Positions 1 through 60,500 of a stretch of 64,000 nt of DNA are shown here, one piece after another. Numbering within the stretch: position 1 is the first letter of the stretch; every line of letters starts with the position of its first letter. The stretch spans positions 248,001 through 312,000 of the forward strand of contig CAUYUJ010000192.1 in assembly GCA_963575745.1 (NCBI GenBank). The letters are read 5' to 3'. The stretch is from Prorocentrum cordatum. Its lineage: Eukaryota. A program made the translations under genes and the position numbers. The notes under the pieces are model-generated. The model was not told where the DNA came from. It saw only the letters and a program-made list of their open reading frames with translations, and made no database searches.

Positions 1-124
1 ATCCTAGAGACACGCATTTCAAGAAGCTCCCGAATGCCACTCCAAGAAATCCCGAGAAGCATCCGAGTCCCCTGGCCCACAACACGGGCACAGAGGTGGG
101 GTGGGCCGAAGGCCATCAGATAGT

Positions 125-1884: not shown

Positions 1885-2067
1885 CTGAGCGACGACGCAA
1901 AAAGAGGGTCTTACAAACGACTGCACAGCTACCATGCGCTCTGGCCTACGCACGCCGCCAGCACGGCACACTGCGAGAGAACGATAACGACCACGCGCGG
2001 CCCTAAGCGGGCAGCTTACGCGCGAATGAGACCCGTGCAGTCAACCAAGCTTCTTGACGTCGCCCAC

Positions 2068-8811: not shown

Positions 8812-9961
8812 TCCACGTCCGGAGGTGACGTGCTGAGCGGTAGCGTTTTTCGGCGAACGCCTTAATGCAACGTATCCCATGTGTCCAATGATTGCACAAT
8901 CGATACATATTGTGTTTTGTTACAGTATTATGTCTCCCCCCCTAACCCCCCCCTGGAGTCGCGCCACAGCGCCGTACCAAAAGTTGGCCCCCCTCATTCT
9001 GGACCCCAAACCTACAAAAACCTACGTAAAATCAACAATTTCGGCCTTTTCGGCCTCTATTGCACAATTGATACATATTGTGTTTTGTTACATTATTATG
9101 TCTCCCCCCCTAACCCCCCCCTGGAGTCGCGCCACAGCGCCGTACCAAAAGTTGGCCCCCCTCATTCTGGACCCCAAACCTACAAAAACCGATGTAAAAT
9201 CAACAATTTCGGCCTCTTCGGCCTCTTGGGACTCCAAGAAGGCGTCAAGGGGGTTCCAGGATGGCCCCATGACGGCCCAAGACGGCCCAATACGGCCCCA
9301 AGACGGCCCCAGATGGTCCCAAGAGGGCCCGTCAGGCCCCCAAGACGGCCCAAGAGGGCCCCAAAATGATCCCAAAGGGCGCCTCCATGAGCCAAAATCA
9401 TAAATTTCCCAATGGCTTTTTAATAATTTTCGCGTTCTCGCCCTTGCCGGCTCTCAGAGGACCATGACGGCCCAACCAGCCTCCAAGGAGACCCCCAGAC
9501 GGCCCAAGAGGCCCCCATGGAGGTTCCAAGATGGCCCAAGGGGGCCCGACACGGCCAAAAGAGGCCCCCATGACGGGCCAAGGGGTCTCCAAGACGGGCG
9601 AAGGAGACTCCCAAAGAGCCCCAAGGCGGCCGCGAGAGGCCTCCAAGATGGCCTCCGAAGGGGCTGGGCGGCGCAAGAGCGCCCCAAGACGGCGCAAGAC
9701 GCAAGAAGAAGCCCCGAGAGGCCCCAAGGCGGCCCCAAAGATGCCCCAAGAGGATCCCTGGAGGCTTCCACGAAGCTCCCATGAGCCCTTCCAGGACACC
9801 GCCTCAAGCCCCGGGGATGGCAGGCCGGAGCGGCACACGCGCGCGGAGGCCGAGCATGTCACGCCATGTAACGCCAACATTTTCCACAGTTCTCCACGGC
9901 GGCGATGACCAGTTCGGATCGGATGCGCGGCGCCTACTCTGCCCGCCTGCAAGCGCGGCGC

Positions 9962-15900: not shown

Positions 15901-16780
15901 GTCGTCTGTGCACCCCGCGCGCAGCGGCGGGTCGCCCTGGCGTGCTCTGTGTAGACGCATCACCAAGCAGGACTGCTTCTGATTTGGCGAGATGGTGATG
16001 AAAAGCCCGTGCCCGTATCCAACCGCGCCAGACTGGAATACGTGGCCCATCCTGCGACGCAGCTCCTGGGTGCCTGCAAGGCTGCTCGTCACAGAGCGCA
16101 TGTTGTGCACGATCTGTTTCTGGGTTGTGTCCAGGCCATGCGCCATGTGCAGCACCGTCAAGTTGCCAGCAATTGGCCGCCTGTTCGGCCCGTAGTACCC
16201 CTTCGCCAACAGGTCGTGCAACCCGCGGACAGCCGCGGTCAGGCGCTCCGTGAAAGCGGATCCGTCTTCGTCCTTGTACTTCCTGACTTTGCTCCCCAAC
16301 CTCGCGGTGATGCCCAAAAAGCGGAAGTGGACATTGCGCATGCCTGGGATGAAGAGCCAGTCCGATCGGATATGGTGTTCCACTCGGCGACTCATGCCTG
16401 CAAGCCACATCCCCATGCTGATGGACGGCCGGTTTTGCACTTCCTCGGGCCGCCCCACCGCGCGCGCCGATCCGCTTCTCGGCAAAACCGTTGCGCCAAA
16501 TACCTCGTGAAGTCTGCCCCCCGCTCCTGCCACAGCGATCGTGTGCGGGAAAAGCGATCGCGGGTACTTCCCGCCACTGCTCCAACATGGGCCGCGCGGC
16601 GACGTAACGGACGACTGGCCCGCCCGTTCCATGCTCTCTGTTGCTTGGTGGGGGGGGGAAAAAACAAGCCACTGACTCCCGCGTCCCCTTGCCGGACTCG
16701 CATCTGGGGCGCGCAGGCGGTCGACTGGCATCGCGTCGAAAACCAAGCGACTCATGCTGTCCATCGCCCGCCTCGCGTGC

Positions 16781-16823
<43 letters not shown>

Positions 16824-19800
16824 TGCACACTGCTCCTGGACGGATCCGCCACCACCGTCGCCCGGTCCACGGCTGGCGGGACCTTCCCGTCGGTGTCCTG
16901 GGGGGTGCCGAGCCACGGGTAGCACTGCTTCACGCGCCTTTCAAACGCCTCCTTGGCAGCGGCGATTGCGATGGGATTGCCAGCAGCATCTCTACAAAAA
17001 GCGGGGTGGCCGCGGTCGATGAGCTCCCAGCCGAGCTGCAGCACCACATGAGCGCGGAGGCGCATGCGCTTCAGATGCTTCGACATGTCCTTGTCTTTCA
17101 TCCGGAACTCGAAGCGAACCAAGTGGGCCAGCGTCTCGCCGTCGTGGGGCAGCGCCGCAGCAGCACTGGAACTCTCCGTGATGGCGAGCAGGCGCTCCAG
17201 GACGTCGTCCCAATGCACCAGGAAGCTGGCCAGATTACCGCGGACAGCGTACCGACTGTGCGGATGCATGGCCTCTGGGGTTCGCCGTGCGAGCAGCGCG
17301 CCACTACCCCCCGTGCACCACTCGGCCACACTGCAGTTTCCAGGGGGGGCGGGGTCCGCAAAGAACAGAGAAGGGGCAGTGCCGCGCTACTTCGCGCAGC
17401 TCGCCTGATTGTTCATGAGGTGGCCCTTATCGCCCTCGACGTAGAACGCCATCAAACTCGTCCACACTGGCGTGGCCGCGGCCATCTCGATCCACCGGGG
17501 CTTGTGCTTCTCCCACCATGCCGACACGAACCCGACAAAATTGTCGTTGGCGATGGCGGGACGCGGGATTCGCTCCCGCACCGTTCGCGTCTTCGCGAAA
17601 ATGCCGCGGCACTGCCAGCACAGAGGTACGCGGCACGACTCGCACAGCTCATCAACAACTCCATGCTGACGGTCGCACACCACGTCTTCCGGGCAGCACA
17701 GGAAGCGCATGGAGTTCTGGCTTCCGTTCGGACCATTCCACCGCACCGTTCGCACCCACGGCGAAGACGCGGTTGTCTGCGTCGGATAGCGGTGCGACCG
17801 CGTCCCGCGGTGGTCCGGAGCAGGGTGCGGGAAGTGCGCCAGGAACGCGTCCAAGCCGAAGGCGTACTCCAGGAGCTCACGCGGACAACTGCGCAAGAGC
17901 CCGCGCAGTGGCGTCCATCCAATCTCACTGACTCCAGCGGACTCGGGGTCCTCGACACTCGTGTAGATCTGACCGCAGCAGAAGCACACACAGCGACCCG
18001 ACAAACAACACCGTTCGCCACTTGCCCTCATGTGCGAAAATATGCCCCCTCTCTTCAAATATGCCCCGAGAGCTGCATGCCCGTGCGCGCCCACCTCCAC
18101 CGCCTGGGCAGTAAATATGACCAGAATCCAGCTATCCTGCTCCTCCAATCACCTCGGCATGGACGCCGACATCGTCGGCGCTGTCAGCGAGTCTCTTGTT
18201 CCACCCCTGCCTCCACGCTGCTGGGAGGCAGGCCTGGTGGCAGCTGATTACGTGGCGCCGCAAATCCCCTTCCGTCTCCCCGGTCCTGCGGCACTGCCGA
18301 ACGGCGCAGTTGCAGATCGGCCACTGCAATCCGTCCATTACCTCCTGGATGTTGTCTGCGGCGTCCGACGGGTCGAACGGCGGAGGAAGCGTCGGGTCCT
18401 GCCGGAGAAATGCAGGGAAAGCCCGAGCTGCTTCGTGGGCGACGTCCAGCGTCGTGTGCGCCACGTCGGCGCCGCAGGCCAAGTGGTCAACGTCGGACTG
18501 CTCTGACCCGGCAGGGGCCTCCGACAGCTCGGAATTGGAGTCCGACGCCGGCTCTGAGGGCGATGACTCCCGGTCGGCGTCGGAGTCAGACTCGGGGGCC
18601 TCCGCGGCTGCAGCGGCATGCTCTTCGCGTTCGCCCTGCGGTCGGAGACGCCTTAGCGCGCGCGCAGCCGCGCCCCGTCGGCGGCCTTCGGGCGCGCGTT
18701 GCAGCCGAACTCCGCGCCCGCCGCACTCCCTCTCATTGAAACGCAAGCGCCCGGGGCCCCGGCTCAGGATGCGGCCCGGCGGAGAAAAGGCGCCCCGATC
18801 GGGCGGCGCCAGTCGGAAGAGTCTGCCCGCGCCGACTTCATGCGCGAAAGCGCGTAGGCCGGGTCAGGATGCGGCGGCGGCGGCGGAGGTGCAGCGTGGC
18901 GCGGTCTCCACTCCAGAGGGTCGGCGAGAAAACGTAAGAACCTATGAAGAAAGCCGCCACGTCCTTCCTCGCCGAATAGCGCATCCCACGTCATCGAAAC
19001 ACCGAACGGGTCGCTGAACCTTCCCCCGCACGCGCAAGTCGCTCTCCCAACGTCGCGGAGCGTTCGTGGCCAGACGTCGCCACTTCCCACCGCATCGTAG
19101 TGTGAAGACCCGTCGACGTCATAGTGGACAAAAGCAAAATCGAGCACTGGGATTTGCGCACGTCCCTGCAGCAACCCCTGGTCCGGGAAGATGGCCGCCT
19201 GGCTCCACGCGTTGAATGGCACGTACAGAGCGAGAGCGCCACAAGCCTCCAGGAAGTGCGTGATCACAACAGCGTCTGCATATCGGCGCGTTGCCGACAC
19301 GTCCTCCGAATGGAGGCCCATGCATATGTCCACGTAGAACACCTGCAGTGGGCGGGGGCAAGAGATAACGCGGGGGTCACTGCGACTCCGCCATTGAAAG
19401 CCAGACCAGTCCCCCAAAAAATTCCTTCGCCCGAGTGAACGCATAAGCGCGGCCCCAGACGCCCTCTCGGCAACGCCCCGACGGCCCCGCCCTCAGAGTT
19501 CGAAAGCATCGCGTGCCTCCTGTGCAAGCACTATTTGGGAAATGTGCTCCTGGATCTCCGGGCTCCGCGAAGGGCACCCCTTCCTCCCCGTGCCCGCGGC
19601 GCCACCTTCCAGTTGGGGAGACTGCCCCACGCGACGCCACTGGCCACCTGCGCTGGCAACTCCTTCTGCAGGCGGGCCCTCCTCTCCACGGCGTACTCGT
19701 CCAGCTGCAGCGCCGCGAACAATTGCTGGTTCCGCTGCTTCATCATCTTCACCAGCGTCCATCTGTACAGCTTCCAAGCCGCGCGGCCTGGAAGTCCCAG

Positions 19801-27560: not shown

Positions 27561-28060
27561 CTGTGGAGCAGAGGGCACGGAGGACGCGAGGCCCGAAAGA
27601 GGAAAGCTCCAGCGAGCGCAGAGTGGACTTGGGCCAACATGGGCAGCGGAGGAGCGACACGTCTGTAAGGAAAACAGACCCTTTGAAAAGGGAAGCTTCC
27701 GACTCCTGCATTCTCCCTTGTGCGTCTCGGAGGGTACGTGCCGGAGCACGACCCACGGGAGCAGCGCGCCTCGTCTCCTTCCTCCGTGCGTCCCAGAGGG
27801 TACGTGCGTCCCAGAGATGGTTGATTACCCTCCGCGGTCGCCACCCTCAATTGCGACCGCGAAGGGTAAGCAGCCATCTCTTCCCAGAACGTGTGAAACT
27901 AGTTTGAAACCACGGTGTGCGCCTCATGGATGAAACTCCTCCCTGGCTCTGAAACTCCTGGTCCGAACTTTGCGCGGGAGGCGCGCACTACAAAGCCACT
28001 TCAACTTCAACCGCGTACGAAACGTCCCTTCTAAGAACACGTCCAAGCTCCCTCCTGCCC

Positions 28061-28224
28061 TGGCGGCGCTCACAGGGAATGGCGCGAGAGGGGCCTGGCT
28101 TGTAAGAAAGCGATGGCTTCTTTGAAGGCGGGGGCCCTCTGAGAAGGTTTCTCAGAGCCGCGGGGGCTTCGAAAAAAAACCCGCCGCCTCCGTAGAACCC
28201 AGTCCCTCTCACGCCACGCCGCCA
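28061..28224. mobile_element. MITE related to the 55572-55774 element
   Basis: Ends TGGCGGCG / CGCCGCCA with an imperfect inner inverted repeat; flanks CCTGCCC / TCTGCCC. Confidence 0.55.
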
Positions 28225-29342
28225 TCTGCCCAAAGTGGAACATCCGCCACCGAGCAGCGAGGCACGAATTGGAGTACCCTCGCCTGTAGTCCAAAGTCCC
28301 CTGTCCTCAGGAATGAATATTGAGGGGCATGGACTCCAAACTTTCAACTGCTCCTGGGATCCCCTTGTGCTTCCCGCGGTTACCCAGCGTTTCCTGCATG
28401 ACTTTTCTCAGAGCCGCGAGCGTCCCAACACGGGCCAAGAAGGCCCCGAGACGCCTCCGACCTACCGCCCAGGTACGGTGGCGGGATGGGCCGAAGGCCA
28501 GCAGATGCCACGACACAACCGCAAACTCGTGCAGGCCGCGCGGATCCTCCGAGCCTGGCGCCAGACTTCCCTCCCCGCTCCACCAGCCCCGGCGCGTGGA
28601 GCGCGCCAGGGACGGCACTGCAGGCGGTCCAGCGCCGACCCGAAGCACCTCTGAGAGCTTGCAGCCCTCGCGCTGCCACAAATAGGGAGCCACATGCGAA
28701 CCCTGCCCCTGCCCCCCACGGCTTCTGGAGGGAGGGTGGGGCTAACTTCGCTCCCCCTTCAGACATCGTGGGGGCTAGGGGGCAGGATTCGAAGGTGGCC
28801 CCCTGACAAGAGTGGCTCGAAAGCAGGCGCGCAGGGGGGTTTTTCTTTCCCGGCCGCGGTGCGCCTCGGCCACGAGCCGGCTCCCCCGACCCAGGCACGA
28901 GGAGCGGGCGGCAGGAACGCCCGGGCCAGTCCCGAGGCGAGAGGGAGGGCCCTGCTCGCCACGTCTTGCCTGGCCCGGCTGCGCTCCTGCCCTCGAGGCC
29001 TGTGCAGGATGCGTGGCGCTCCTGCCCGCATCCCTCCCGAACCTGCTCTCCCGTGCTCGTGGACTTGAAGTCGGGCCCGCCCCCCCTACTGGGGGCTTCT
29101 GGGCTACAAAAAAAACAATTCCAACACTCCTCGTTTGCATCCCTCCCGCACCTGCTCTCCATGCTCCTGGATTTGAAATCGGGCCCGCCCCCCTACAGGG
29201 GGCTTCTGGGCTGCATAAACAACTCAAACATTACTCACCGAATGCCCCCAAACACTAAAACAGAACAACTCAAACATTACTCCCTATATGCCCCACAATA
29301 GTCAAAACATCGTCCCCAGACTATGTTTGGGTTACTTTTGAA

Positions 29343-30771: not shown

Positions 30772-32546
30772 TCCACGTCCGGAGGTGACGTGCTGAGCGG
30801 TGAGGTCTTTTCGGCCGAACGCAACTTCATCACCTCCATGATCCCCATGTGTCCCATGAAACAATAGGAGCGGCATGAACTGAGACTTATGGCCCCCATG
30901 GGCCGTCTCCCCACCCATAACACCCCCCCCCATGTGAGAAATCGCGCCACAGCGCACGTACCAAAAGTTGGCAACCCCTCATTCTTGGACCCAAACCTAA
31001 CCCCACAAAAACCTACGTAAAATCAACAATTTCGGCCTCTTCGGCCTATATTGCGGAATTGATACATATTGTGTTTTGTTACATTATTATGTCTCCCCCC
31101 CTAACCCCCCCCTGGAGTCGCGCCACAGCGCCGTACCAAAAGTTGGCCCCCCTCATTCTGGACCCCAAACCTACAAAAACCGATGTAAAATCAACAATTT
31201 CGGCCTCTTCGGCCTCTTGGGACTCCAAGTAGGCGTCAAGGGGGTTCCAGGATGGCCCCATGACGGCCCAAGACGGCCCAATACGGCCCCAAGACGGCCC
31301 CAGATGGTCCCAAGAGGGCCCGTCAGGCCCCCAAGACGGCCCAAGAGGGCCCCAAAATGATCCCAAAGGGCGCCTCCATGAGCCAAAATCATAAATTTCC
31401 CAATGGCTTTTGAATAATTTTCGCGTTCTCGCCCTTGCCGGCTCTCAGAGGACCATGACGGCCCAACCAGCCTCCAAGGAGACCCCCAGACGGCCCAAGA
31501 GGCCCCCATGGAGGTTCCAAGATGGCCCACGGGGGCCCGACACGGCCAAAAGAGGCCCCCATGACGGGCCAAGGGGTCTCCAAGACGGGCGAAGGAGACT
31601 CCCAAAGAGCCCCAAGGCGGCCGCGAGAGGCCTCCAAGATGGCCTCCGAAGGGGCTGGGCGGCGCAAGAGCGCCCCAAGACGGCGCAAGACGCAAGAAGA
31701 AGCCCCGAGAGGCCCCAAGGCGGCCCCAAAGATGCCCCAAGAGGATCCCTGGAGGCTTCCACGAAGCTCCCATGAGCCCTTCCAGGACACCGCCTCAAGC
31801 CCCGGGGATGGCAGGCCGGAGCGGCACACGCGCGCGGAGGCCGAGCATGTCACGCCATGTAACGCCAACATTTTCCACAGTTCTCCACGGCGGCGATGAC
31901 CAGTTCGGATCGGATGCGCGGCGCCTACTCTGCCCGCCTGCAAGCGCGGCGCCTACTCTGCCCGCCTGCAAGCGGGGCAGAGCATGTCTGCTTTGTCGCG
32001 CTGGGAACTCTTCACGGCTGCTCGCATAAACACTGCCGAGCACTGGGCGCATTTCAGCCCCCCGCGCGGATCCCGGCACTGAGCGCAGGTCCACTCTTTC
32101 ATGTTCCACACTCTGTACTTGGCCGTCTTCGGCCGCGGAGTCGTGCCACATCTCGCGCACGGCGGGAATTTGCAAGACTCGCACCAAAAACCGGCGCTGT
32201 ACGTCAAGCGGTCTGGAGGCCTTGCTCCGCAGCCTCCCTGACAGAGGGGCTTCCCTTTTTCGTCGAGACATTCTGTGCACGCGGCGTCTTTGACGCTCTT
32301 GTGCATCTTAAAAAAGGCTGCATCAAACTGATCCGCTGCCTTCTCCTGCGAGCAGATGCGGCACTTAAAAAGGCGGCCCTCCGACATAATGTTGAAATGC
32401 TGCCTCTCAGGGGTGCAAGCGACGCAAACGGCAAGGTCCAGCGCCCCTCTTCCCGTCAAGTCATTGACCTCGCTGCGTCTGAAGTTCTTTAACGATTTAG
32501 TCTCCTTGCAGCGATTGCAGACGAGCACGTCTCTGCCTTTCGCGGG

Positions 32547-32577
<31 letters not shown>

Positions 32578-32594
32578 AGGGGGGAAAAGGATAA

Positions 32595-32631
<37 letters not shown>

Positions 32632-33868
32632 AGGGGAAGGGGGGGGGGGGGGAGGGGGAGGGGGGTGGGGGGGGGGGGGGGGGAGGGGGGGGGGGCGGGA
32701 GGAGAGGAAAGAGGGAGGGGGGCGGGGGGGGGGGGGAAAGGGGATGGGGGGAGCGGGGGGGGGGGGGGGGGGGGGCCTTTCGCGGCGAATGGCTCTGCAG
32801 CCGCGGCGGGCGCGCCCGCAGCAGAGGTCCGCTTCTGCGCGCACAGGGCGCACCTCCTCCACGCGCCCTGGCACAGCAACGCCACGGCGTGCTCTACGGG
32901 GTCGCTCGTTCTCATGCCGCTGCCGGGGAAGTTGCCCGCTCTCTTCCGCTGGTGGCAGTCGGCGCACTGGAAAGTGACGTCCACCAACTTCTTGGACGAC
33001 CTGGACGCGGCTTCCTTCTCTGCATTGGCCCAGCCGGCTTCCGCCTGCTCCGTCGTCATCTCCCCGGCTGTCAGGGAGTGCAAGAGCCATGGGCCCGTCT
33101 GATGCCCCTGGCGGAAAAGCATGGGCGAAAAAGGCTGCGTGATGATCAGATCGTCAGCCCTCCTGGTGCGGCTGATGGCCACGTAGCCCGTGGGGACCTT
33201 GGCTGCGCGGGGCGTCGTGCGCGCGTCCAGGAGGTCGATAATGGCCTGCGGCAGCGTGGCGCCGGTGACGCAGTGGGCCGTGGCGGCGAAGTGCGGGACC
33301 AGCGGGAACCCCGCGCGCTTCACCATGGCCTTGAAGCCGGGACTGCGATCCCAGGACACCTCCCTCTGCTTCACGGGGAAGACGCCCGCGGGCTGATTCC
33401 CAAAGCGGGGCGCCGTGTTCCCGGGAATTTGCACCATGATCGCCTCGGGCACGTGCTGCCAGTACCACAGCTCCTTCTCGGAACCTGTGGTCTTTTCAAC
33501 CCACTTCCGTCGTCGGGGTGAGGCTCCTATCCTTTCCCCGTGGCGTCCCAGATTGTACGTGCCTGGGCACGACCCAGGAGCGCACGAATCATCTCCTCCC
33601 TCCGTGCGTCCCAGAGGGTCTCAAGTTACTCAACATGCGAAGCTTCACGCGCCCCCGCCTCCCGCGGGCGCGAATCGTGTCGTGACCAGCCCCCTCCCCC
33701 CCTGGTCACGCCTGTGCCAGAGAACCAAAAAAGTGATTCCGATAACCCCCCAAGCTTCCCCAATAGGCCCCCAAGAGGTCCTCCGGAAGCTTCCCAAAAA
33801 ACTCCCAAGGCGTCCAAAACGCCCGTACTCTCCGCAGTCCGGACGTGCACCCCGCGAAGCGAGAGGAA
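30772..33868 (+). mobile_element. Family B copy 2: tandem, internally deleted 3.1-kb copy
   Basis: 30772-33450 repeats 8812-11390 and ~33560-33868 repeats ~30450-30771; identical termini. Confidence 0.85.
31953..33515 (-). pseudogene. RepHel 3' fragment (helicase motifs V-VI and CxxC repeats)
   Basis: FPLVPHFAATAHCVTGATL, YVAISRTRR and six CxxC..CxxC modules in a single frame. Confidence 0.9.
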
Positions 33869-38365: not shown

Positions 38366-39228
38366 CCTCCTCCCTCTTCCTCCCTCCTCCTCCCTCCTCC
38401 TCCTCCACGTCCTCCTCCTCCTCCTCCTCCTCCTCCTCCTCCTCCTTCTGTAGGTCCCAAGACTGCGGCCCTCTGCGGGGGAGGGCAAGACGGCGTTGGG
38501 TAACAGCTCTTCCCCCGGATGCGGCTCCAGCATGACCCCGCGGGAGCAGGCACGGCCCGAGAGCCGAGGCGAGGACGTATCAATGACCACCGCCTCGGGG
38601 ACCTGGGGGATCGATCTTCGCGGACCTGCACAGGCGGTTGATATGGATACAGTAGGAGCTCGACCACAAGAAACCTTCCACAAGAAACCCAACCCTGAGA
38701 CCTCTGGACGTCCACTGATATTGGTGCGGGGACGTCACGCTCTCCATAGCAGAACCATCGAAACCCAGGAAACTCAGGGCACCCTGGTCAAGCAGGGTGT
38801 TCCTTGGTACGGGTTTCCATGGTAAAGATTGGACAGGGACGTTTCAAAGTGAGAAGGGGCAGGCCTTCTCCCAGGGCGGCGGGGCTTCTCAAACACCCCC
38901 CGGCCTTCTGAGAAGCCGTCTGTGTCTTCGAAGAAAGCTTAGGAAACTTCTCAGACGGCCGAAGGCCTTCCGAGCCTTTACCCATTGGGCTCGCCGCCAC
39001 CGATTGTCTGATTCCAACTTGCTGAGCGTGCAATTAAGCTGCACGCTCAGCAACGGAGAACAGTGAGAGTGGGGAGGAGGAATTATCCCGGCAAAGCAAC
39101 CTAACAGCGATGTGTATCAGCATATCTGGAAGCATTCCCCTTAAGATTCAGGTGATAATCCAGTTGTAGAATTCTGCTGTTCTCGCAGTCGCAGTCGCAT
39201 TCGCAATGACAGTCGCAGTGGCAACGGC

Positions 39229-39495
39229 CTTAGGATCCAATGGAATCCTAAGGATTCCTAAGGCATCCTTAGGCATCCTTAGGAATCCATAGGAATCCTT
39301 AGGACACCTTAGGAATCCTTAGTAATCCTGATTCCTAGGGATTCCTAGGGATTCTTAAGGATTCCCAGGGAATTCTAAGGATTCCTAAGGATTCCTGAGG
39401 ATGCTTAACTATGCCTACGGATTCCTAAGGATGCCTACGGATTCCTAAGAATTCCTAGGGATTCCTAAGGATTCCTATGTATTCCTACGGATGCC
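39229..39495. repeat. 10-bp minisatellite that switches strand (CTTAGGAATC, then GATTCCTAAG)
   Basis: The two unit types are reverse complements; switch near 39330. Confidence 0.85.
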
Positions 39496-40626
39496 TCAGC
39501 CTGCCTCAGTTTCAGCCTCAGCCTCAGCCTGCCTCGGCTTACCTCAGCCTCAGCCTCAGCCTGCCTGGGCCTCGGCCTCAGCCTGCCTCAGCCTCAGCCT
39601 CAGCCTGCCTCGGCCTCAGCCTGCGTCAGCCTCAGCCTCAGCCTGCCTCAGCCTCAGCCTGCATTAGCCTCAGCCTCAGCCTCAGCCTCAGCCTCAGCCT
39701 CAGCCTCAGCCTCAGCCTGCCTCGACTTGCCTCAGCCTCAGCCTCAGCATGCCTCGGCCTCAGCCTGCCTCGGCCTCAGCCTGCCTCAGCCTCCCCTCCT
39801 CCCCCCCCCTTCCCCCCCCCATTCAGCCTCACCTTGTCTCAGCTTCGGCCTGCCTCGGCCTCAGCCTCAGCCTCAGTCTCAGCCTCAGCCTGTCTCGGCC
39901 TGAGCCTGCCTCGGCCTCAGCCTCAGCCTGCCTCAGCCTCAGCCTGCCTCAGCCTCAGCCTCAACCTGTCTCAGCCTCAGCCTGCCTCAGCATCAGCATC
40001 AGCCTCAGCCTCAGCCTCAGCCTGCATCAGCCTCAGCCTCAGCCTGCCTCAGCCGCCGCTTGCCTCAGCCTCAGCCACAGCCTCAGCCTCAGCCTCAGCC
40101 TGCCTCAGCTCCAGCCTCAGCCTCAGCCTGCCTCGGCTTGCCTCAGCCTCAGCCTCAGCCTGCCTCGGCCTCAGCCTCAGCCTCAGCCTGCCTCAGCCTC
40201 AGCGTCAGCCTCTCAGCCTCAGCCTGCATCAGCCTCAGCCTCAGCCTCAGCCTCCTCAGCCTCAGCCTCAGCCTGCCTCAGCTCCACCTCACCTCGCTGC
40301 CTCGGCTTTCACTCAGTTCTCCTCACCTCAGCCTCAGGCCTCGGCCTCAGCGTCAGCCTCAGCCTGCCTCAGCCTCAGCGTCAGCCTCTCAGCCTCAGCC
40401 TGCATCAGCCTCAGCCTCAGCCTCAGCCTGCCTCAGCCTCAGCCTCAGCCTGCCTCAGCCTCAGCCTGCCTCAGCCTCAGCCTGCATCGGCCTCAGCCTG
40501 CGTCAGCCTCAGCCTCAGCCTGCCTCAGCCTCAGCCTGCCTCGGCCTCGACCTCAGCCTGCCTGGGCGTGCCTCAGCCTCAGCCTGCCTCGGCCTCAGCC
40601 TGCCTCGGCCTCAGCCTGCCTCAGCT
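39495..40626 (+). repeat. (CTCAGC)n satellite with CTGC variants
   Basis: Direct reading. Confidence 0.95.
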
Positions 40627-40659
40627 CGGGTATTCAAAATATGGCACAGGACTGATATC

Positions 40660-41020
40660 TGGGAACACGAAGATCACGAAGTGGCCCACATGTTGGCTGC
40701 AGGCAATCAAAATATGGTACAAGAATTGTGTTCTGGAAACACGAAGAACACGAGGTGGCCTACAGTCTGTTCCGGGCATTCAAAATGTGGCCTGGGAATA
40801 GTGTTCTGGGAACACGAAGAACACGAAGTGGCCTACAGTTGGCTCCGCGCATTCAAAATGTGGCCTGGGAATGGTGTTCTGGGAACACGAAGAACACGAA
40901 GTGGCCTACAGTTGGCTCCGCGCATTCAAAATGTGGCCTGGTAGTTGTGTTCTGGGAACACGAAGAACACGAAGTGGCCTACAGTTGGCTCCGCGCATTC
41001 AAAATGTGGCCTGGGAATGG
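40660..41020 (+). repeat. ~73-bp tandem repeat, about 5 units
   Basis: Unit TGTTCTGGGAACACGAAGAACACGAAGTGGCCTACAG..TTCAAAATGTGGCCTGG. Confidence 0.9.
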
Positions 41021-41360
41021 TATTCTGTTGGCTCCGGGCAGTCAAAATGCTGCTCCTGGCAATCAAAATGGGGAGTCACCGGTTTTCCCCGGCATCCCCC
41101 GGATCCTGCCCAGACCCCTCTGGGGAATCAGGATGCTTTCTTTTGACCCCACTAGAAACCTTGTTGAGTAAAAGGAAGAGGAAGAGGATGTGGAGGATGT
41201 GTACGAGAACGCAGCGTGCAACATGCATTATACATCACAAATCGTCGCGCCTCGTCGGAAGACGCACTCTCACCCGAAACCGGCTGGACCAGTTCAGGGC
41301 GCAACAACATTATGTTGACGGCAAGGCTGCTGGATGGGTGAGCATCGCCTACCACTCATG

Positions 41361-43091
<1,731 letters not shown>

Positions 43092-51504: not shown

Positions 51505-54500
51505 GCAGAAATGCTGCTCCAGCGGGCGGCGATCCAGGGACCGATACGCGAATTGGCCGGCCTGCAAGAGGAAAAAGGGGGGAACAGGGCGGCCGCGGAG
51601 GAGGGGGAGGAGGGGGAGGAGGAGGAGGAGGAGGAGGAGGAGGAGGAGGAGGAGGAGGAGGAAGGAGGAGGAGGAGGAGGCCACTCCGCACATGGATCCG
51701 GCACGAAAGACTGGCCCTGGGAAGGGGTCGGGAGCTCCAGGGTCGCGGATTCACGACATCAGATCGGAGGACGTCGGCCAAGACGCTGCTCTGCCCATTC
51801 GCCGAGCCTCGGCCACGAGCAGGCTGCTGCCCCGACCTCTAGACTCGGGGGCGGCCAAGAGGGGGGGCGCACATCATGGCCAGCGGTGTGCGCGGCCCAG
51901 CGGGGGGCCAGGGACGTCTGGAAAGAAGAGGCGCGCGAAATCTGGGAAGACCATGGCCCCCGCCATGACATCCCCCCCCCTGGTCATCACCCCCCTCTTG
52001 GCCGCCCCCGATGGACCCGAGGCGCAGCCCGAAGACCGAGAGCCCATCCTGGGCCCAAGGAGTGTGCCCTCTCTCGGGATCCTGGATGTAACACATCCCT
52101 CCTCCTCTTCCTCCTCCTCCTCCTCCTCCTCCTCCCCTCCTCCTCCTCCTCCTCCTCCTCCTCCTCCCCCCTCCTCCTCCTCCCCCTCCCCTCCTCCTCC
52201 TCCTCCTCCTCCTCCTCCTCATCCTCCTCCTCCTCACATCGCGCCCGAGCGACCGGCACTCCCCGGGACGGCGGCAGGACGTGGGCACACCTGGGGCACA
52301 TCCTGGGCCCCCAGGTGTGCCCCCTTTCGGACTTCTAGAGCCCCTCCTGAGGCTGGAGCCCCCTGTGGGCACAGTCTCAAAGGACTGGAGCCCCCATGTG
52401 GGCGTGGCTTAATGGGGGGGTCACAAATGGGGGGGGTCAGAAAAGGTCCCCTTTCGTGCCCCTTTCGGGCCCCTCCAGAGCCCCAGGGGGCTCGTTTGGG
52501 TACCGTTTGGGTACCTTTTCGGACCACGCTCGCCACCCCCCCATTTATGACCCCCCCAGTACGCGGCGCCCAAAAGGTGCCTTCTCTCGGCATCCCGGCC
52601 GTACAGTCGACCCGTATCACGAGGGTGCGCGGTGAGGAGGCAAGGGCCCTGGAGGGCCACGTTGGCGTTTCTCGAGGGAGGCTGGCCAGCGAGTCGCCGA
52701 GGATGGGCCGAAGGGGCAAGAATGCAAGGGTACCCTATGGAAGGTTGCCTATCCTTACTATGAGGGTTGACTGTAACATTACATGACGCCCGAGGGACCA
52801 GCACTCCGAGACTACGGCAGGTTGTTGACACACTTGGGCACATAATTGAGCAAGGATCTCGGCGAGAGCCGGCGGGCCAAGAAGGCAGATCGTCGCCGCG
52901 TTGGCACCAAAGCGCTCTTGAGGAAAACACATCCCAACCCCACCTTTAGCCAGGACACCCACTCAAGACCTGGTGATCCAGGGAGTTCTTGGCTGGCCCA
53001 CCGGCCCTAAAACAAACACCCCACACCCAGCCAAGACCCCGTGGATCACCAGGTCGGGCGTGGGGTCCCGGCTGGGGGTTGGGTTGGGTTGTGCGGTCCC
53101 CTGCTCGGGCATGCTCTGTGTCGCAGCTACAGTCCGTTGCATGATGCGACGTTGCACGATCTTCCCCCAAACAATACTGATGCCACCCTGAATTGGCGAA
53201 TCATTTGACCGTCGACGCCCGAGGTGCTATCAAGAGCCTCCTCGACAACTGGACAGATGGGCTCTCTGCAAACCGCAGTGCTCTGACAGAGCATCAGTAT
53301 CGCATCGTTGGCCTGCCATCCCTGCTTGAGACTGCTGCGAAGAGTCGCCAGCAGATCGCAAGTCAAACCTAAATTCCAACATCGGTCATGACGGGCCTTG
53401 GCTCGAACGGCACTTACGAGCCCCAGCAACATCTTTGAGGCGGCCTGGGCCTGGTGGGAGCACGTCGTCCGAGCTCAAGGCAACTCACAAGAGTCGTCTG
53501 CGATGCCTGTACGATGTGCCCCCCCCCCCTCCCCCCGGATAGGGGCACGAGGTGCGTGCACGGGTCCGCTGCGCAGCCAGGCACGCAGTCGATGGATGGC
53601 GGCGACCGAGGAGACGCCGTCTCCTGAACGGACTGGGCCAATCCGAGCTCTCGTGCGTCGACCCACTGGCTGCAGCACACGCCCAGCAGCTCCCCCCCCG
53701 ATGTTCCCGAACTGGCACTTCTCCGAGCGCGGAGATGGCACACGACCAGCGCGCAGAATTCAGAATTCGACCCACACGGCATCAGGCAGGCGCGCGATGG
53801 TGTTGGATGTTCGTTTGAAGAGCTTCCTGGAGCCACTCGCTTCACTCATGCGACGATACTGCGTCGAACGTCCGTCGAATTGTGTCGGACTGGAATCGAA
53901 CCTGGGTCGACCTTACCTCAAATACTGAAACGGACAGATCCGTCAGGCAGACCCCAGGGAGGTCCCCGAAACGAGCACCTGACAGATGCATCACAGAACC
54001 CCGCACGTTTCCCTGAGATCTGACGTCAAGAAACAAATACAGCATCGTCAAACAACAACTTGACCAGAGTCCTGGACCCCATCTCTCTGCGGCAACTGTC
54101 GAGTCGGATCGATTCGTGTGGGTCCTTGGGCCCGAAGCAAGGCAGCATCGCTAATTATGGTCACACTATACCTACACATCCGACGTCGTGATTGTTCCAC
54201 AATCTGGCTCCCCAGAACTCTGGCCTCTTTCTCCAGGACCAGCTTTTCATCCTGGATCGTTTCCTTTTGAACTTTTGAGCGCCCAAAAACGGGTACGGAA
54301 CAAAAATGGGCACACTGCCAAAGAACGAGTGGCATCCAAAAACCGACAGCGGCCGCCGTTGGGTAGGCTGCCTTCTGTCTCGAATGGGCAGCCTCCGCGG
54401 CGGCGCGGGCAGCGAGCCCTGCTCCAAGTGAGCAGGAACTGCAGCGGTGCGGTGACAGACCGTGCGGTGACCTCGAAATCCCCCAAGACCTCACCGCACG

Positions 54501-57500
54501 GTCCGTCACCGCACGGTCTTGGGAAACCCGGAGGCCCCCGCCGCCCGAGACATCCTCGGAGAACGACCCGAGTCCCAAAACCGTGCGGCGACCCCGAATC
54601 CCCACCGACTCACCGCACGGCGCGGTCACCAACCACCCCGTGTGGGGGCCCCCCGGCTGACGGGGCCCCGCGAGGGGCCCCCGAGGCGGACACCTGGCAG
54701 AAGCCCTCCGCGGGGACGCCTGCGCGGCGCGAGGGCGACTGGGCACCCCGGGCGGCCCGACGTGCCGAGCGGAGCGCGGGCGCGCGGGCGCGCGGCGCGC
54801 GGCGCGGGCGCGAGCCGCCGCGGCCTTGTCGTGCCGCGCCAGCTGGAGGACGCGGCCGCCCTTCTCGTCCAGGACGGCCTGCGCGGAGGCGGGTCTCGGG
54901 CGGGGGGGGCTCTCCGAGGAGCCGCCCTCCTGGCCCCGGATCCGGGGCTCCCGCTGGGCAGTGCTTCCCGTTTTTTCGTTGTCGTCGTCGTCGCTTCCCC
55001 TCGTGCTGTCCTCGTTCCGCCCCTGCTGCGAGGCGAGGTCAAAAGCTGTACGCGAGATCGCCGAAACGCCGGTTAGCCCGAGCCCTGCCTCGATTCTTCA
55101 ATACGTGCACACGCATGGGCAGGCCGCGCTGATGGACATCAGGCGCCTGGGCAGTGGCCCCACGCAGACAAGAGGGCCACCTTGGGAGGACGCGCCGGAT
55201 CCTCCGCGGAGAATCAGCAAAGGCCAGCACGGGCTGTGGAGGGGAGCTGGGAGGACGTGGGGGAAGACGAAGGCAGGAGGGAGGGAGGGAGGGAGGGAGG
55301 GAGGGAGGGAGGGAGGGAGGAGGAGGAGGAGGAGGAGGAGGAGGAGGAGGAGGAGGAGGAGACGCCTGGGAGGAATAAAAGGCTGCATAAACATATAACT
55401 CGGCACGGATCTCTCGGAGCGGCGACTGGCCGCCGCCCGTGGCACTCCCAGTGCGGCAAGGAGGGGGGTCCGGCGCGGATCCAAGACGTCCGCGCGGGCC
55501 TCCAGAAGGCTATGCGCATGCCATGCGTATGATGTTGCTTCACATCAGGAGACTGGGGCCTGGACAGAAGGTCGGCGGCGAGCGAGGGGGGGAAATGAGA
55601 AGGAGTAGGCCTTCTCGGAGGGCGGCGGAACTTCTCAGAGGCCCTCGCACCTTCTGAGAAGTTTTTGTCTGTCTTCGGGGAAGGCTTTTAACGAACTCCT
55701 CAGAAGGCCCTTGGGGCTTCCGAACCTTCTGAGCAGGCCTTCTCCTTCTCACTTCCCCCCTCGCTCGCCGCCGAGTTGTTTCACATTGGGAGACTGGGGC
55801 CTGGGCAGAAGGGACATCGTGCACGTGTTGAACGACGCCAAGGCGGTCGAGCGGTCTCTCGGACGGGGTCGACGTGGCCCGAGCTGCCGCGGAAGCGGTG
55901 GGGTGCACGGTGTCCGGCCGAGGCCTGGCGACGGTGGGGCTCGAGGCGCACCACCAGCTGCTACGGAGCTTCCAGGCAGCAAGCGGCCTTCGCTGCCACT
56001 CGGGCTGCGCAAGTGGACTCTGGATGCGAAGGCGTCGTGGTCCAAACGGTTGTGTTCGCGGAATGCGGCGGAAGCATAGCGAGCTGAGCACAGGCTTAGG
56101 TCCACGGGTACGCCTGGTGCACAGCAGGAACAGACACCTAGCCACGGCAACACAAACGCGAGCCGCATCTGGAGGAGCAACGCAACACACACTGCATTCT
56201 GAGGTCCGCGCAGGTTTAGGCCCGGCGCCGATCCAAGAGATCTGCGCGGACCCCCGAAAATCACTGGGACCAGAGCAGACGGGGCTTGAAGATGCCACCG
56301 CGTCAAGACAGACAGACAAACTGTCCTGGGGATCTCGTGTCTGGATGCTGGAGGCGGCCAGGAGGTTGAGAGCTGGCTGGGCCCCGAGAAAATTTGTCGA
56401 TAAGGAGGGATGAAGGCATGTCCGCTCAAAATCGGTCCTCAGACCCCTCCCAGGGTCCATCTTTGGAGTCCCGAAATGGTGCGGTGACAGACCGTGTGGT
56501 GACCTCGAAATCCCCCAAGACCTCACCGCACGGTCTTGGGAAACCCGGAGGCCCCCGTCGCCCGAGACAACCTCGGAGAACGACCCGAGTCCCAAAACCG
56601 TGCGGTGACCCCGAATCCCCACCGACTCACCGCACGGTGTGGTCACCACCCCGTTTGGGGGCCCCAGACCATCTGGTGCTGCGAGGTTGGTCACCCCGGA
56701 TCCGTGTTCGACGCTCCTGGGGCCCGAAAACAAAGCGGCCCCCTCTGACTGACTGCCTGAAGCCTTGCGCCCAGAAGACGCCTGGGCAAGACTGCGCGCG
56801 TGGCAACCGGCGGCGAGAACAACCGACTCGACCATGCGACAGACCTGGGCCGGCAACACCGGGCGGACAACAGGAGGGAAGGGGAGGAGGGCGGCGAGGG
56901 GGGGCAGGAGAGCCAAAAATCGAATCGACAAGTCGGATCGGAAGTCGACATGAATCGGATCGGCGGAAATCGGCAGCCGAGTCGGGAAAAGTCGAATCGG
57001 CGGGCATCGGCAGGCTGGTGTGCGTCCAATGAGAAATCGGAACCGAAATCCGAATCCCAAGTGGAATCGAATCGGAATGGGAATCCATCGAAATCGAATC
57101 GAATCGGAGGAATCGAAACGAGCCCTGGGGGGGGGGCAAACGAGTGACGCTCAGAGACACGCGCGCACAATCAGAACTGCCCCCCGGAGACCGAACAAAG
57201 GCAGAACACGCCCTCCCGCACCCCGGGGCCTCGGGCCTTCGCCCACCTCTCGCCTGCTTGCCGGCACTGGTGCCGGGCCACCTCGGACCTCCAGCCAGAA
57301 GTGACTACCTACCAGACCACCCCAACCCAACCCGAAGACCCGAAGTTCGGGTTGGGGGGGATAAGGGTTCCACCCGTGTTTTTTCAATGTTCCCCGACCC
57401 TCCCCCCCACTGGAAATGGAGGCCAAATTGAGGCCTTCGGGTTGGGTTGGGGTGGTTTGGTGGGTGGTGAAGAAGCTGGAGAGGCCTTCCGCGCGGTGTC

Positions 57501-60500
57501 AGAGCAGGTGGCGTCGGAGGCTCGCGCCGCATCACCGATGCATCACCGATGCATCGGCGATGCATCGGCGATGCATCGGCGACATCGGCGATGCATCGGC
57601 GACGTCGGCCTCGAGGAAGACGAGATCCACATCGAGCCGCATCGCCGATGCGTCGGCGATGCGGAGCGATCCTTCGACCCATCTACGGCTGGACCCAGGA
57701 CAGAAGAACATCCTTCAAGAACATGAGACCCTCCGCCGGCCAGAACTGAGGAGCATTCGAGGGTACCCTCCCACAGGATGCACAAGCACAGTCAACAAGC
57801 ACGAAAAACATTAGGGAACATCATGGCACCCTCCCCGAACCGACCTCGATCTTCTACCTCGGGCCGACCGCAAACGATTGGGCCGTGGTCGGGGCGAAAT
57901 GGGGGGGCCTTCCCAGAGCAACGGAGGGCTGCTTGGAGCAGCGGACCGGCCCCCTCCTGGGGCGTGCGCGCACAGTCCTCGTGCCACGATGTGGAACGCC
58001 TACCCATCGGTCGGAAGAGGTAAGTAGAAACATGAAGTCGGAAGGTGTTGAAAACAGGTTGGGTTTCCGCCCGCCCCCTAAAACGGACGGAAAAGATGAA
58101 GCCAGTCGATCATTGAGGTAAGAAGGCGCATAATTCGGGGATGGACAGACCTCCCTTTGGTAAAACGTGGTTTAGTGAAAAACAACCTGAGGCCCAAACC
58201 TGGCGGGCGCAAGCCTGGAAAATAACGGCCGCGGCGCCCTCTCGAGAACCGAAAACGGACAATTCACTAATCGACGTGTCACTGTTGGGGGTTCTGTCCA
58301 CCCCCGAATAATGTAGATTGGAATCAAGCGGCCCGAGCCCGACCCCCCCCCCCCCCCGAAAGCGGTCCCTGTTCCGGCGCCTTGGCTGCGGGCCTCTGGC
58401 ACCCCATCGGGAGGCCGAGACCAGCCGACGCCTCGCCATCGCTCGGACGTCCATTCCCTGTGTGTGTGTGTGTTTTTGCCCGGGAAACAACCGTGCTCCT
58501 CGATGGTCCTCGCCGTTAAACAGTGCACGCGTCCGAGCGATGCCGAGACTCCATTCTGATGGTGGCCTGTAGGGACGCGCAAAGCGTCGACGACACAGGC
58601 TCTTCGAATGCCACCCCCGCGCGCCAGGGGCGCCGCCCAGATTGATGTGGAGTGTGGAGAGGGGGCCCAGGGCTGACCCAAGAGACTCGAGCGGACCTTT
58701 GGTGAACGTTTTCTTATTCGGCGTTTCGACACTGGGCCGGAGGAGGGGTGGGGGGCTGGCTCCGGACCTTGACGGCGAGCGGGAATAAGATCCAATATGA
58801 GGAGAAAAAATACTAGAGCTCTAACGAATGGCTGAGTTTCGAGAAATTCAATTTGCTTAGGGCGGCTGTTTGCAGCAGTACGCCCCAGGGGGGGGAGATC
58901 CCACCTGCTCGAAACAGGCGCCCAAAGCAGCCAAGGTCTACTCCATGGGGGGAGGGGAGGGAGGCGTGCGACGGCCCGCGCCAATCGGCAAAACGATGGA
59001 CAAGACACGATCCCTTGGGAGCTCCTCCTCCTCCTCCTCCTCATCCTCATCCTATTCCTCCTCCTCCTCTCCCCCCTCCTCCTCCTCCTCCTCCTCCTCC
59101 TCCTCCTCCTCCTCCTCCTCCTCCTCCTCCTCCTCCTCCTCCTCCTCCTCCTCCTCTTCGATGGTCGACTCCTGGAATCGAAGCGGGCCGGCCGCAGTGG
59201 CCAGCGGATCGGACTGGACCGGGCCCGCGCGGACCCTGCACGGATGAAGAGTCTGCCTTCACCCCGATCGTCGCCCTGCTAGAAGAGAGGCACGGCGGAG
59301 GGCTGGTCCGAGTCGACATCGAGCCGGACAGATCGGATCGACATTAGGGGAAGACGCACTGGCACGGGCATGAACTTTCGGAGCTCCGCGCGGATTTCTT
59401 TTGGATCGCTGGGTCCCCCTGCCCGTCGCGCGCAGCGTGGTAGCACCAAGAGGCACAACGCCAAGCCGAGAAATCCGTGCAGATCTTTGAGAAGATACGT
59501 TGCTGCTTTTTTCCTCCTCCAGGAATGGACCCTGGACGATCCAATCGAATTGGATCGGACGAGATCGGATCAATCCGATCAAAACTGGGGAAACACAATG
59601 GTTCCGATACCGCTACTCCCAGGACCTGTCCCAGGATGCGTTCTGACCAGAATTTCGAAGCGAATCTAGCCGTGGCGTCACAAGCCTCCAAGGAGGCCCA
59701 AGAAGGCGAAAACGACGGAAGCGCAGCGGTATCGGTACCTTGTTTTCCTCTGACGTAAAGGCCTCCCAGATGTGGTCGGAGGGTCGCGCCGCACCGCCGA
59801 TGCACCAGCGATGTATCGGCGATGCATGGGCGATGTCGGCGATGAATCGGCGCCGTCGACGTGGAAAAATCTCGCTCCTCAGCGAACATCATGGCCGATG
59901 GCAGCATCGCCGATGCACCGACAGTGCGGCGCGATCCTTGACCCCTTGCTCCCACCAGCTCCACCCCCAGTAGAGAGGCCCAGAGGTATCTGTACCATCT
60001 CCTCCACCCAGGGTCGAATCGGATCGACGTGGGCCCAGGGAAAGCAAGAGTGCACAAATCCCCGGGCGGTGTTCCTTCTCATCGTCCTCGTCCTCCCTGC
60101 CGTGATCCTCGCCCTCGTCCCCGCCGTCCTCGCTCCCCTCGCCCCTTTCGCCCTCCTCCCCTTCGTCTCTCGTCCTCGTGGTCGTCTTCCTCGTCCTCGT
60201 CCTGATCGCCATCCTCGGCCTCGTCCCGCCTCCCCTTCGTCTCTCGTCCTCGTGGTCGTCTTCCTCGTCCTCGTCCTGATCGCCATCCTGGGCCTCGTCC
60301 TCGTCCTCGTCCTCCTCGTCGTCGTCGCCGCCGTCGTCGTGGTCGTCGTCGTGGTCGTCGTCGGCGTAGGTTAGGAGGAGGGGGAGGGGGAGGAGGAGGA
60401 GGAGGAGGAGGAGGAGGAGGAGGAGGAGGAGGAGGAGGAGGTCCCCGCGCCGCAGACGGCGCGCGCGGCGGTAGATCTGGCCGCGCCTGCACCTCGCCGC

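What the first reader, a model, noticed from the sequence alone, without database searches (positions are those of the whole stretch)
55534..55812. TIR element with a 38-bp target duplication that forms a perfect GT-AG intron
Seen: a 203-bp element with long TIRs, flanked exactly by GTTGYTTCACATYRGGAGACTGGGGCCTGGRCAGAAGG (34/38 identical). The last G of the left copy plus the element's first T gives AAG|GT (55571); the right copy supplies AG|G (55811). Splicing 55571-55811 removes the element plus one duplicate and restores the pre-insertion sequence. Known: eukaryotic TIR transposons usually make 2-10-bp TSDs, long variable ones are known from bacterial IS1549/IS1634, and introners co-opt TSD splice sites. 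Inference: a long-TSD intron-generating element. A relative at 28061-28224 has only a ~7-bp duplication, hinting at variable TSD length.
Basis: partly seen in the sequence, partly recalled or inferred. Interest (0 to 1): 0.78.

Follow-up and report, generated by a model that had tools for sequence, protein, structure and literature searches.

The report
Hairpin transposon with 38-base target duplication
A small, hairpin-shaped, non-coding jumping element sits in repeat-rich DNA of a GC-rich protist and is flanked by an unusually long 38-base copy of its landing site, but nothing shows that it lies in a gene or works as an intron.

Summary
A 203-bp element (55572-55774) with inverted ends folds end to end. 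It is flanked exactly by a 38-nt direct repeat, 34 of 38 identical.

The element belongs to a high-copy family. In contigs of four public runs, matches break off at 55572 and 55774 and run into dissimilar sequence. A database protein that translates another copy also diverges at the left end. The 38-mers are therefore target DNA, and a target duplication made at insertion is the best reading.

The intron reading has no support:
- No Pfam domain, homologue or codon periodicity marks a gene here.
- No RNA run was available.
- A sequence-restoring GT-AG register appears by chance in 11% (one strand) or 24% (either strand) of random 38-mers from the window.

No other long-repeat-flanked inverted-repeat element is in the window. 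The one distant relative whose flanks can be read has a 6-7-bp duplication.

Verdict: a MITE copy with a probably one-off long target duplication. Whether the family makes long duplications regularly could not be tested, because no genome was held.

The parts
55534..55571 (.). Left copy of the 38-nt duplicated target
   Evidence: It is unique in the window apart from its partner: the best other local score lies within the range of shuffled queries.
55572..55774 (.). 203-bp non-coding hairpin element (MITE-like), a member of a high-copy family
   Evidence: Inverted ends. End-to-end hairpin with z = -8.4. High summed depth in all four runs laid, with loose ends at 55572 and 55774. P0005 translates another copy.
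55572..55622 (+). Left inverted-repeat arm
   Evidence: pair I2 (20 nt, 100%) and pair I1 (36 nt, 86%).
55725..55774 (-). Right inverted-repeat arm
   Evidence: pairs I1 and I2.
55775..55812 (.). Right copy of the 38-nt duplicated target (34 of 38 identical to the left copy)
55571..55811 (+). Dinucleotides only; no evidence of splicing.
   Evidence: Register 37. The chance rate is 10.8% on one strand.
55560..55800 (-). Equally hypothetical GC-AG interval on the other strand. It shows how easily such registers arise.
   Evidence: Register 12 on the minus strand. With GT, GC or GA donors, 65% of random 38-mers give a register on one strand or the other.
38828..38999 (+). Truncated, degenerate copy of the same family. 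Its ends are too decayed to read a target duplication.
   Evidence: 73.5% identity over 136 nt. nhmmer E = 7e-15, element positions 20-158. Local score 61 against a maximum of 18 in 500 shuffles.
28061..28224 (.). Distant relative with T-GGCGGCG ends. It is flanked by CTGCCC (28055-28060 and 28226-28231), which is 6 nt exact or 6 of 7.

Best explanation
The 203-bp stretch is one copy of a high-copy, non-autonomous DNA transposon with inverted ends (a hairpin MITE) in a GC-rich, repeat-rich protist genome. When it inserted, 38 bp of target were copied to both sides. That is far more than the few bases usual for such elements in eukaryotes.

I think this is most likely a single irregular event. 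Either the two ends joined the target strands 38 nt apart, or an excised element was captured in a break with long staggered ends that were then filled in.

The site lies in non-coding, repeat-rich DNA. The GT...AG that a 38-nt duplication ending in AGG creates next to the element's first T is a coincidence, not a working intron.

Shown: the anatomy, the family membership, the exact boundaries, and the lack of gene signals.
Inferred: the duplication arose at insertion, it is a one-off, and it is not spliced.
For: - Anatomy.
- High copy number. All four runs laid (X1, X2, X8, X9, as contigs at 80% likeness or more) show summed depths in the hundreds to thousands over 55504-55837. Depth over 55838-56171 is zero or near zero.
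- Boundaries. At 55774, 64 X1 contigs run on into sequence with only 0.35 agreement. At 55572, 9 X8 contigs are preceded by sequence with 0.44 agreement. P0005 matches the translated element (residues 463-527 of the 536-aa frame) and then diverges after '...ISPPRSPP', which is the left end.
- The repeat abuts both ends to the base, and no further short duplication lies between repeat and element.
- Only this locus in the window has a direct repeat of 14 nt or more directly enclosing inverted ends. The 6 other rows of the scan lie in the palindromic or tandem arrays at 39.2 and 42 kb.
- The distant relative has a 6-7-bp duplication.
- No gene signal:
  - None of the 98 ORFs of 200 aa or more across the window has a Pfam hit at 54-58 kb.
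  - None of the 138 ORFs of 70-199 aa in 47-64 kb has a hit above its cut-off; the two hits listed are weak and lie elsewhere.
  - There is no steady 3-base GC periodicity over 55400-56100.
  - All 23 hits to the 536-aa minus-strand frame fall on repeat-derived parts, and none on residues 245-462, the unique part.
  - The + frame 55832-56410 has no homologue.
- Chance rate of a restoring GT-AG register: 10.8% on one strand, 23.9% on either.
Against: - Only one intact copy could be read as DNA, so 'one-off' is an inference. I could not measure duplications in other copies.
- The runs laid are contigs of what appear to be low-coverage or related genomes. They say nothing about this locus itself or its transcription.
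- No RNA data were available, so splicing is untested, not disproved.
- Gene-poor signals are weak evidence in a lineage where many genes have no known domain.
- The proposed splice geometry (last G of the duplication plus the first base of the element as donor, AG from the duplication as acceptor) has a real precedent. It is class 12 of the Polarella glacialis introner-like elements (passages of bioRxiv 10.1101/2020.10.14.339549).
Confidence: 0.6

Rival explanations
1. The family's own integration machinery regularly makes long or variable target duplications, from about 6 to about 38 bp. This would be a eukaryotic counterpart of the bacterial insertion sequences that leave long variable repeats.
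For: - The duplication abuts both ends exactly, as a transposase-made one would.
- A distant relative has a different, short duplication, so length does vary between relatives.
Against: - The sample is one copy of the family proper plus one distant relative. That relative may be moved by a different enzyme.
- No other long-repeat-flanked inverted-repeat element is in 64 kb.
- The passages I read give 3-9 bp for introner families (PMC9860276) and 3-8 nt for the dinoflagellate classes described (10.1101/2020.10.14.339549).
Confidence: 0.15
2. The element is an introner. It inserted into a transcribed gene and is spliced out as a 241-nt GT-AG intron (55571-55811, + strand) or as a GC-AG intron on the other strand (55800 down to 55560). 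Either removal restores the pre-insertion message.
For: - The dinucleotides are in the right register.
- The geometry matches class 12 elements of P. glacialis.
- The hairpin would bring the two ends together in RNA.
Against: - No gene signal was found on either strand.
- The chance rate of such a register is 11-24% for GT-AG, and 65% if GC and GA donors are allowed.
- The donor GTCGGC has C at +3, and the acceptor is preceded by a purine-rich stretch. Both are weak by the general eukaryotic consensus (my own knowledge, not tested for this organism).
- The element carries no splice site of its own.
Confidence: 0.06
3. The 38-mers were not made at insertion. Either the element landed exactly between two pre-existing tandem copies, or the palindrome later provoked a local duplication through fork stalling or template switching.
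For: - Long palindromes are known to provoke rearrangements (general knowledge).
- The last 15 nt of the 38-mer are 13 of 15 complementary to an inner motif of the element (pair I6).
Against: - It needs both junctions to fall, to the base, on the ends of the mobile unit as defined independently by other copies, and with no duplication of its own.
- The resemblance to the inner motif is marginal: p about 0.02-0.06 by shuffles, and 5.6% of random window 38-mers score as high.
Confidence: 0.12
4. Assembly artefact: a false duplication round a hairpin-forming sequence.
For: Palindromes trouble sequencing and assembly (general knowledge).
Against: The two copies differ at 4 of 38 positions, all transitions. 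Two are an adjacent CA / TG pair, as expected from decay of one CG in each copy. That points to evolutionary divergence, not read error.
Confidence: 0.03

Closest known systems
[quoted passage not shown]
   Same: Short (203 bp), non-coding, with inverted ends and an end-to-end hairpin. High copy number with sharp boundaries, and flanked by duplicated target.
   Different: The duplication is 38 bp. The passages read give 3-9 bp for introner-type MITEs (PMC9860276) and 3 nt for Micromonas (PMC11282704). No autonomous partner or transposase was found in the window.
Introner-like elements of dinoflagellates (Polarella glacialis classes, especially class 12; Symbiodinium; Amoebophrya)
   Same: Non-autonomous elements with inverted ends and target duplications. 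In class 12 the donor is the last G of the duplication plus the first base of the element, and the acceptor AG comes from the duplication. That is the geometry proposed here.
   Different: In the passages read, the classes whose duplication length is given have 3-8 nt and were defined from thousands of spliced introns in genes. Here the duplication is 38 nt, no gene is evident and no splicing is shown.
Bacterial IS1634 / IS1549-type insertion sequences with long, variable direct repeats
   Same: A long duplication of target at an element with inverted ends.
   Different: Those are prokaryotic, and their behaviour is a family-wide property of a known transposase. Here the host is a eukaryote, a single case is known and no transposase is known. 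I checked it in no paper.

Membership tests
MITE (non-autonomous DNA transposon with inverted ends) | Short length with no coding capacity of its own | tested here: met
   The element is 203 bp. ORFs that include it have no Pfam hit. The only protein hit to its translation is a 103-aa orphan.
MITE (non-autonomous DNA transposon with inverted ends) | Terminal inverted repeats | tested here: met
   20 nt perfect, continuing as 36 nt at 86%. 0 of 100 shuffles had 2 matches.
MITE (non-autonomous DNA transposon with inverted ends) | Many copies with the same ends in different flanking DNA | tested here: met
   High depth in all 4 runs laid. Loose ends at 55572 (9 contigs, agreement 0.44) and 55774 (64 contigs, agreement 0.35). 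P0005 diverges at the left end.
MITE (non-autonomous DNA transposon with inverted ends) | Target-site duplication of a length fixed for the family | tested here: inconclusive
   A duplication is present, but it is 38 bp in the one readable copy. Copy e38 is too decayed to read, and distant relative e28 has 6-7 bp.
MITE (non-autonomous DNA transposon with inverted ends) | Autonomous partner with the same ends | not testable with these tools
   None is in the window and no genome is held.
Introner (intron-generating transposon) | Copy lies inside a transcribed gene and is removed by splicing | tested here: inconclusive
   No gene signal was found. No run on record as RNA was listed, and no joint 55571-55812 is among the joints shown (62 more joints were not shown).
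Introner (intron-generating transposon) | Splice sites carried by the element or recruited from the duplication | tested here: met
   GT at 55571-55572 and AG at 55810-55811. The chance rate is 10.8% on one strand and 23.9% on either, so this carries little weight.
Introner (intron-generating transposon) | Many family copies form introns in unrelated genes | not testable with these tools
   No genome or annotation is held. No longer protein carries the element's translation.
Long-duplication transposons (IS1634-like behaviour) | Long and variable duplications across many copies of one family | not testable with these tools
   Only one intact copy is readable. The scans of metagenome, prokaryote-genome and viral contigs gave chance matches or nothing.

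The most novel reading that the evidence does not exclude
A hairpin MITE family of a GC-rich protist (its repeats are shared with proteins labelled as dinoflagellate and as Pyramimonas sp.) integrates with target duplications that range from about 6 to about 38 bp. Because the element starts with T, any target ending in AGG then yields a ready-made GT-AG intron that restores the original message. That would make it a long-duplication introner.
Probability: 0.07. Interest if true: 0.7.

Novelty: new member of a known kind. Interest (0 to 1): 0.27.

Why it matters
If the 38-bp duplication were typical of the family, it would point to an integration mechanism not described for eukaryotic inverted-repeat transposons. 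It would also give a new route by which insertions supply both splice sites.

As it stands, the locus is one irregular insertion of an otherwise ordinary, uncharacterised MITE in non-coding DNA. It is useful mainly as a pointer: a genome-wide census of this family's flanks in the source assembly would settle the matter quickly.

Tried and rejected
- Whole genome: none is held for this window, so no census of copies was possible.
- Sequencing runs: 12 were listed, 10 of them holding a small share of the words (0.13 or less). No RNA holder was listed.
- Laying X1, X2, X8 and X9 (contigs) covered only the repeats. The unique flank 55838-56171 had no cover, apart from 4.27 in one bin of X9. No joint across 55571-55812 was among the joints shown. 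This says nothing on expression or splicing.
- Metagenome scan with an inner-arm motif: 8 loci, and none of the 8 showed similarity beyond about 37 nt around the 21-nt motif.
- Prokaryote-genome scan with both ends: 0 matches.
- Viral scan with the 18-nt end: 1 match, with 19 nt alike only.
- Rfam at gathering thresholds and a tRNA scan over the window: nothing.
- nhmmer with the element found only e38 besides itself.
- A scan for GGCGGCG...CGCCGCC pairs gave no further convincing element.
- Resemblance of the 38-mer's last 15 nt to an inner motif of the element: marginal, and not pursued.
- A possible third copy of the 38-mer near 55138-55160: scores lie within the null.
- Earlier scan notes: none for this genome or sequence. 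Notes on long duplications concern prokaryotes.
- Organism: labels on related repeat-derived proteins disagree, so I name no source. Six of the 10 looked up are 'Pyramimonas sp CCMP1952' in EukProt. One carries Prorocentrum cordatum and Polarella glacialis names. Three are unnamed.
- A paper on Arctic algal genomes turned out not to include a Pyramimonas genome.

Full report
**1. What is there**

- A 38-nt direct repeat (55534-55571 and 55775-55812, 34 of 38 identical) encloses a 203-nt stretch, 55572-55774.
- The ends of that stretch are a perfect 20-nt inverted repeat. After a one-base offset it continues as a 36-nt pair at 86% complementarity.
- Neither feature is chance. The 38-mer consensus and the 20-nt end each occur only at these two places. 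No match to the 38-mer consensus appeared in any of 100 shuffles, and none had two matches to the 20-nt end.
- Folded as a single strand, the whole element is one long hairpin: -69.7 kcal/mol, z = -8.4, with 0 of 200 shuffles as good.
- The four differences between the 38-mers are all transitions. Two of them are adjacent, CA on the left and TG on the right, each one step from CG. This is what independent decay of one CpG in each copy would give. It argues for real age rather than an assembly error.

**2. The element is a mobile family and the 38-mers are target**

No genome is held for this window, so I used public runs. Twelve runs were listed, all with small shares of the words and none on record as RNA.

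I laid the contigs of four of them (X1, X2, X8, X9) on 53500-58499 at 80% likeness or more.
- All four show very high summed depth over the element's bins. They show none over the unique flank 55838-56171, apart from 4.27 in one X9 bin.
- The pattern fits low-coverage or related genomes in which only repeats assemble.
- Matches break exactly at the element's ends. At 55774, 64 X1 contigs run on into sequence with only 0.35 agreement. At 55572, 9 X8 contigs are preceded by sequence with 0.44 agreement.

A search of 1.84 billion representative proteins with the 536-aa minus-strand frame that reads through the element gave 23 hits. One of them, P0005 (103 aa), matches the translated element (residues 463-527) and then diverges right after the element's left end.

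The mobile unit is therefore 55572-55774, and the 38-mers belong to the landing site. They abut both ends to the base, with no additional short duplication. A target duplication made at insertion is the simplest account.

**3. Other copies in the window**

- nhmmer and blastn find one more family member, at 38828-38999. It is 73.5% identical over 136 nt (E = 7e-15), truncated, and has decayed ends, so no duplication can be read.
It scores 24, against at most 17 in 500 shuffles and at most 20 in 587 random window segments. It has similar T-GGCGGCG ends and is flanked by CTGCCC, 6 nt exact or 6 of 7.
- I scanned the window for direct repeats of 14 nt or more that directly enclose inverted ends. 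It returned this locus plus six rows inside the palindromic and tandem arrays at 39.2 and 42 kb.

So there is one long duplication, one short one in a distant relative, and no means here to read more copies. The scans of other collections gave chance matches or nothing: 8 loci in metagenomes, 0 in prokaryote genomes and 1 in viral contigs.

**4. Is it an intron?**

The dinucleotides are there. The interval 55571-55811 begins GT and ends AG, and its removal leaves one 38-mer.

That is weak evidence. I placed 20,000 random 38-mers from the window round this element as identical duplicates.
- A sequence-restoring GT-AG register appeared in 10.8% on one strand and in 23.9% on either strand.
- With GT, GC or GA donors the figure was 65% on either strand.
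- The minus strand of this very locus offers a GC-AG register, 55800 down to 55560.

The element carries no splice site of its own, since it starts TC and ends GA.

Nothing marks a gene.
- None of the 98 ORFs of 200 aa or more in the window has a Pfam hit between 54 and 58 kb.
- Of the 138 ORFs of 70-199 aa in 47-64 kb, only two have hits. Both are below their cut-offs and lie elsewhere.
- GC content by codon phase shows no steady periodicity over 55400-56100. By contrast, the recognisable ORFs of the window have GC3 of 0.72-0.81.
- The 23 protein hits all fall on repeat-derived parts of the long minus frame, and none falls on residues 245-462, the unique part.
- The + frame 55832-56410 has no homologue.
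- No protein of 169-2000 aa carries the element's translation.

Splicing itself remains untested, because no RNA run was available.

**5. Mechanism**

The best-supported reading is a non-autonomous cut-and-paste element that was integrated once with an irregular 38-nt stagger. Two routes seem possible. The two ends may have joined the target independently, or an excised copy may have been captured in a break with long overhangs that were then filled in. These routes are inference. What is shown is only that the duplication is exact and target-derived.

Rivals, in order of my odds:
- A family-wide long or variable duplication (0.15).
- A pre-existing tandem repeat or a palindrome-provoked duplication (0.12). 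This is disfavoured because both junctions coincide to the base with ends defined independently.
- A working intron (0.06).
- An assembly artefact (0.03).

**6. Comparison with what is known**

From passages I read (not whole papers):
- Introner families show 3-9-bp duplications (PMC9860276).
- Micromonas introners show 3 nt and Amoebophrya introners 3-5 nt (PMC11282704).
- Where the passages give a length for a P. glacialis class, it is 3-8 nt. Class 12 builds its donor from the last G of the duplication plus the element's first base (bioRxiv 10.1101/2020.10.14.339549). That is the geometry proposed here.
- Prorocentrum cordatum is described as a 59.7% G+C, repeat-rich genome with introner-type introns (bioRxiv 10.1101/2022.07.25.501386).

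The window has about 50-66% G+C. Its repeat-derived ORFs resemble proteins with differing labels. Six of 10 looked up are 'Pyramimonas sp CCMP1952' in EukProt. One carries P. cordatum and P. glacialis names. Three are unnamed. I therefore name no source organism.

I found no paper on this element family. The searches were made, and none was by sequence. Supplementary datasets with introner sequences were not read and could hold relatives.

**7. Verdict**

This is a new, uncharacterised member of a known kind (MITE) with one unusually long target duplication. Interest is modest unless a genome-wide census shows that long duplications are the rule.

Noticed in passing
window 11400-16929 (-): Helitron-like ORFs: Helitron_like_N in the 1169-aa frame 13423-16929 (E = 4.9e-7), and a PIF1-like helicase piece in 11400-12599 (E = 4.2e-5, just under its cut-off).
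   Followed up: no
window 22-2040 (-): A 673-aa open frame with two thrombospondin type-1 repeats and the start of a VWA domain. It is the only clear cellular gene signal in the window.
   Followed up: no
window 8932-11105 and 30905-33335: A segmental duplication of about 2.2 kb at 98-99% identity.
   Followed up: no
window 54446-54652 and 56478-56665: A dispersed repeat (87% identity between the two copies) with very high depth in all four runs. Its translation matches short orphan proteins labelled Pyramimonas sp CCMP1952 (EukProt) and one labelled Prorocentrum cordatum / Polarella glacialis. The labels disagree on lineage.
   Followed up: partly
window 55400-55503 and 56219-56259: Another high-copy repeat lies 30 bp upstream of the left 38-mer, with a partial copy downstream. 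In one contig each of X8 and X9, the element's right end (55774) is joined directly to the reverse strand of 56261 downward. Elsewhere, then, the two families lie side by side.
   Followed up: no
window 55557-55572 vs 55724-55739: The last 15 nt of the 38-mer plus the element's first T are 88% complementary to an inner motif of the element. The significance is marginal (p about 0.02-0.06).
   Followed up: partly
window 57529-57609 and 59798-59858: Tandem arrays of a palindromic 11-mer (CGATGCATCGG). Summed depth over 57508-57674 in the runs laid ranges from 241 (X8) to about 72,000 (X2).
   Followed up: no
window 39228-39499, 39493-41027, 42008-42627: Palindromic and tandem satellite arrays in the lower-GC middle of the window.
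   Followed up: no
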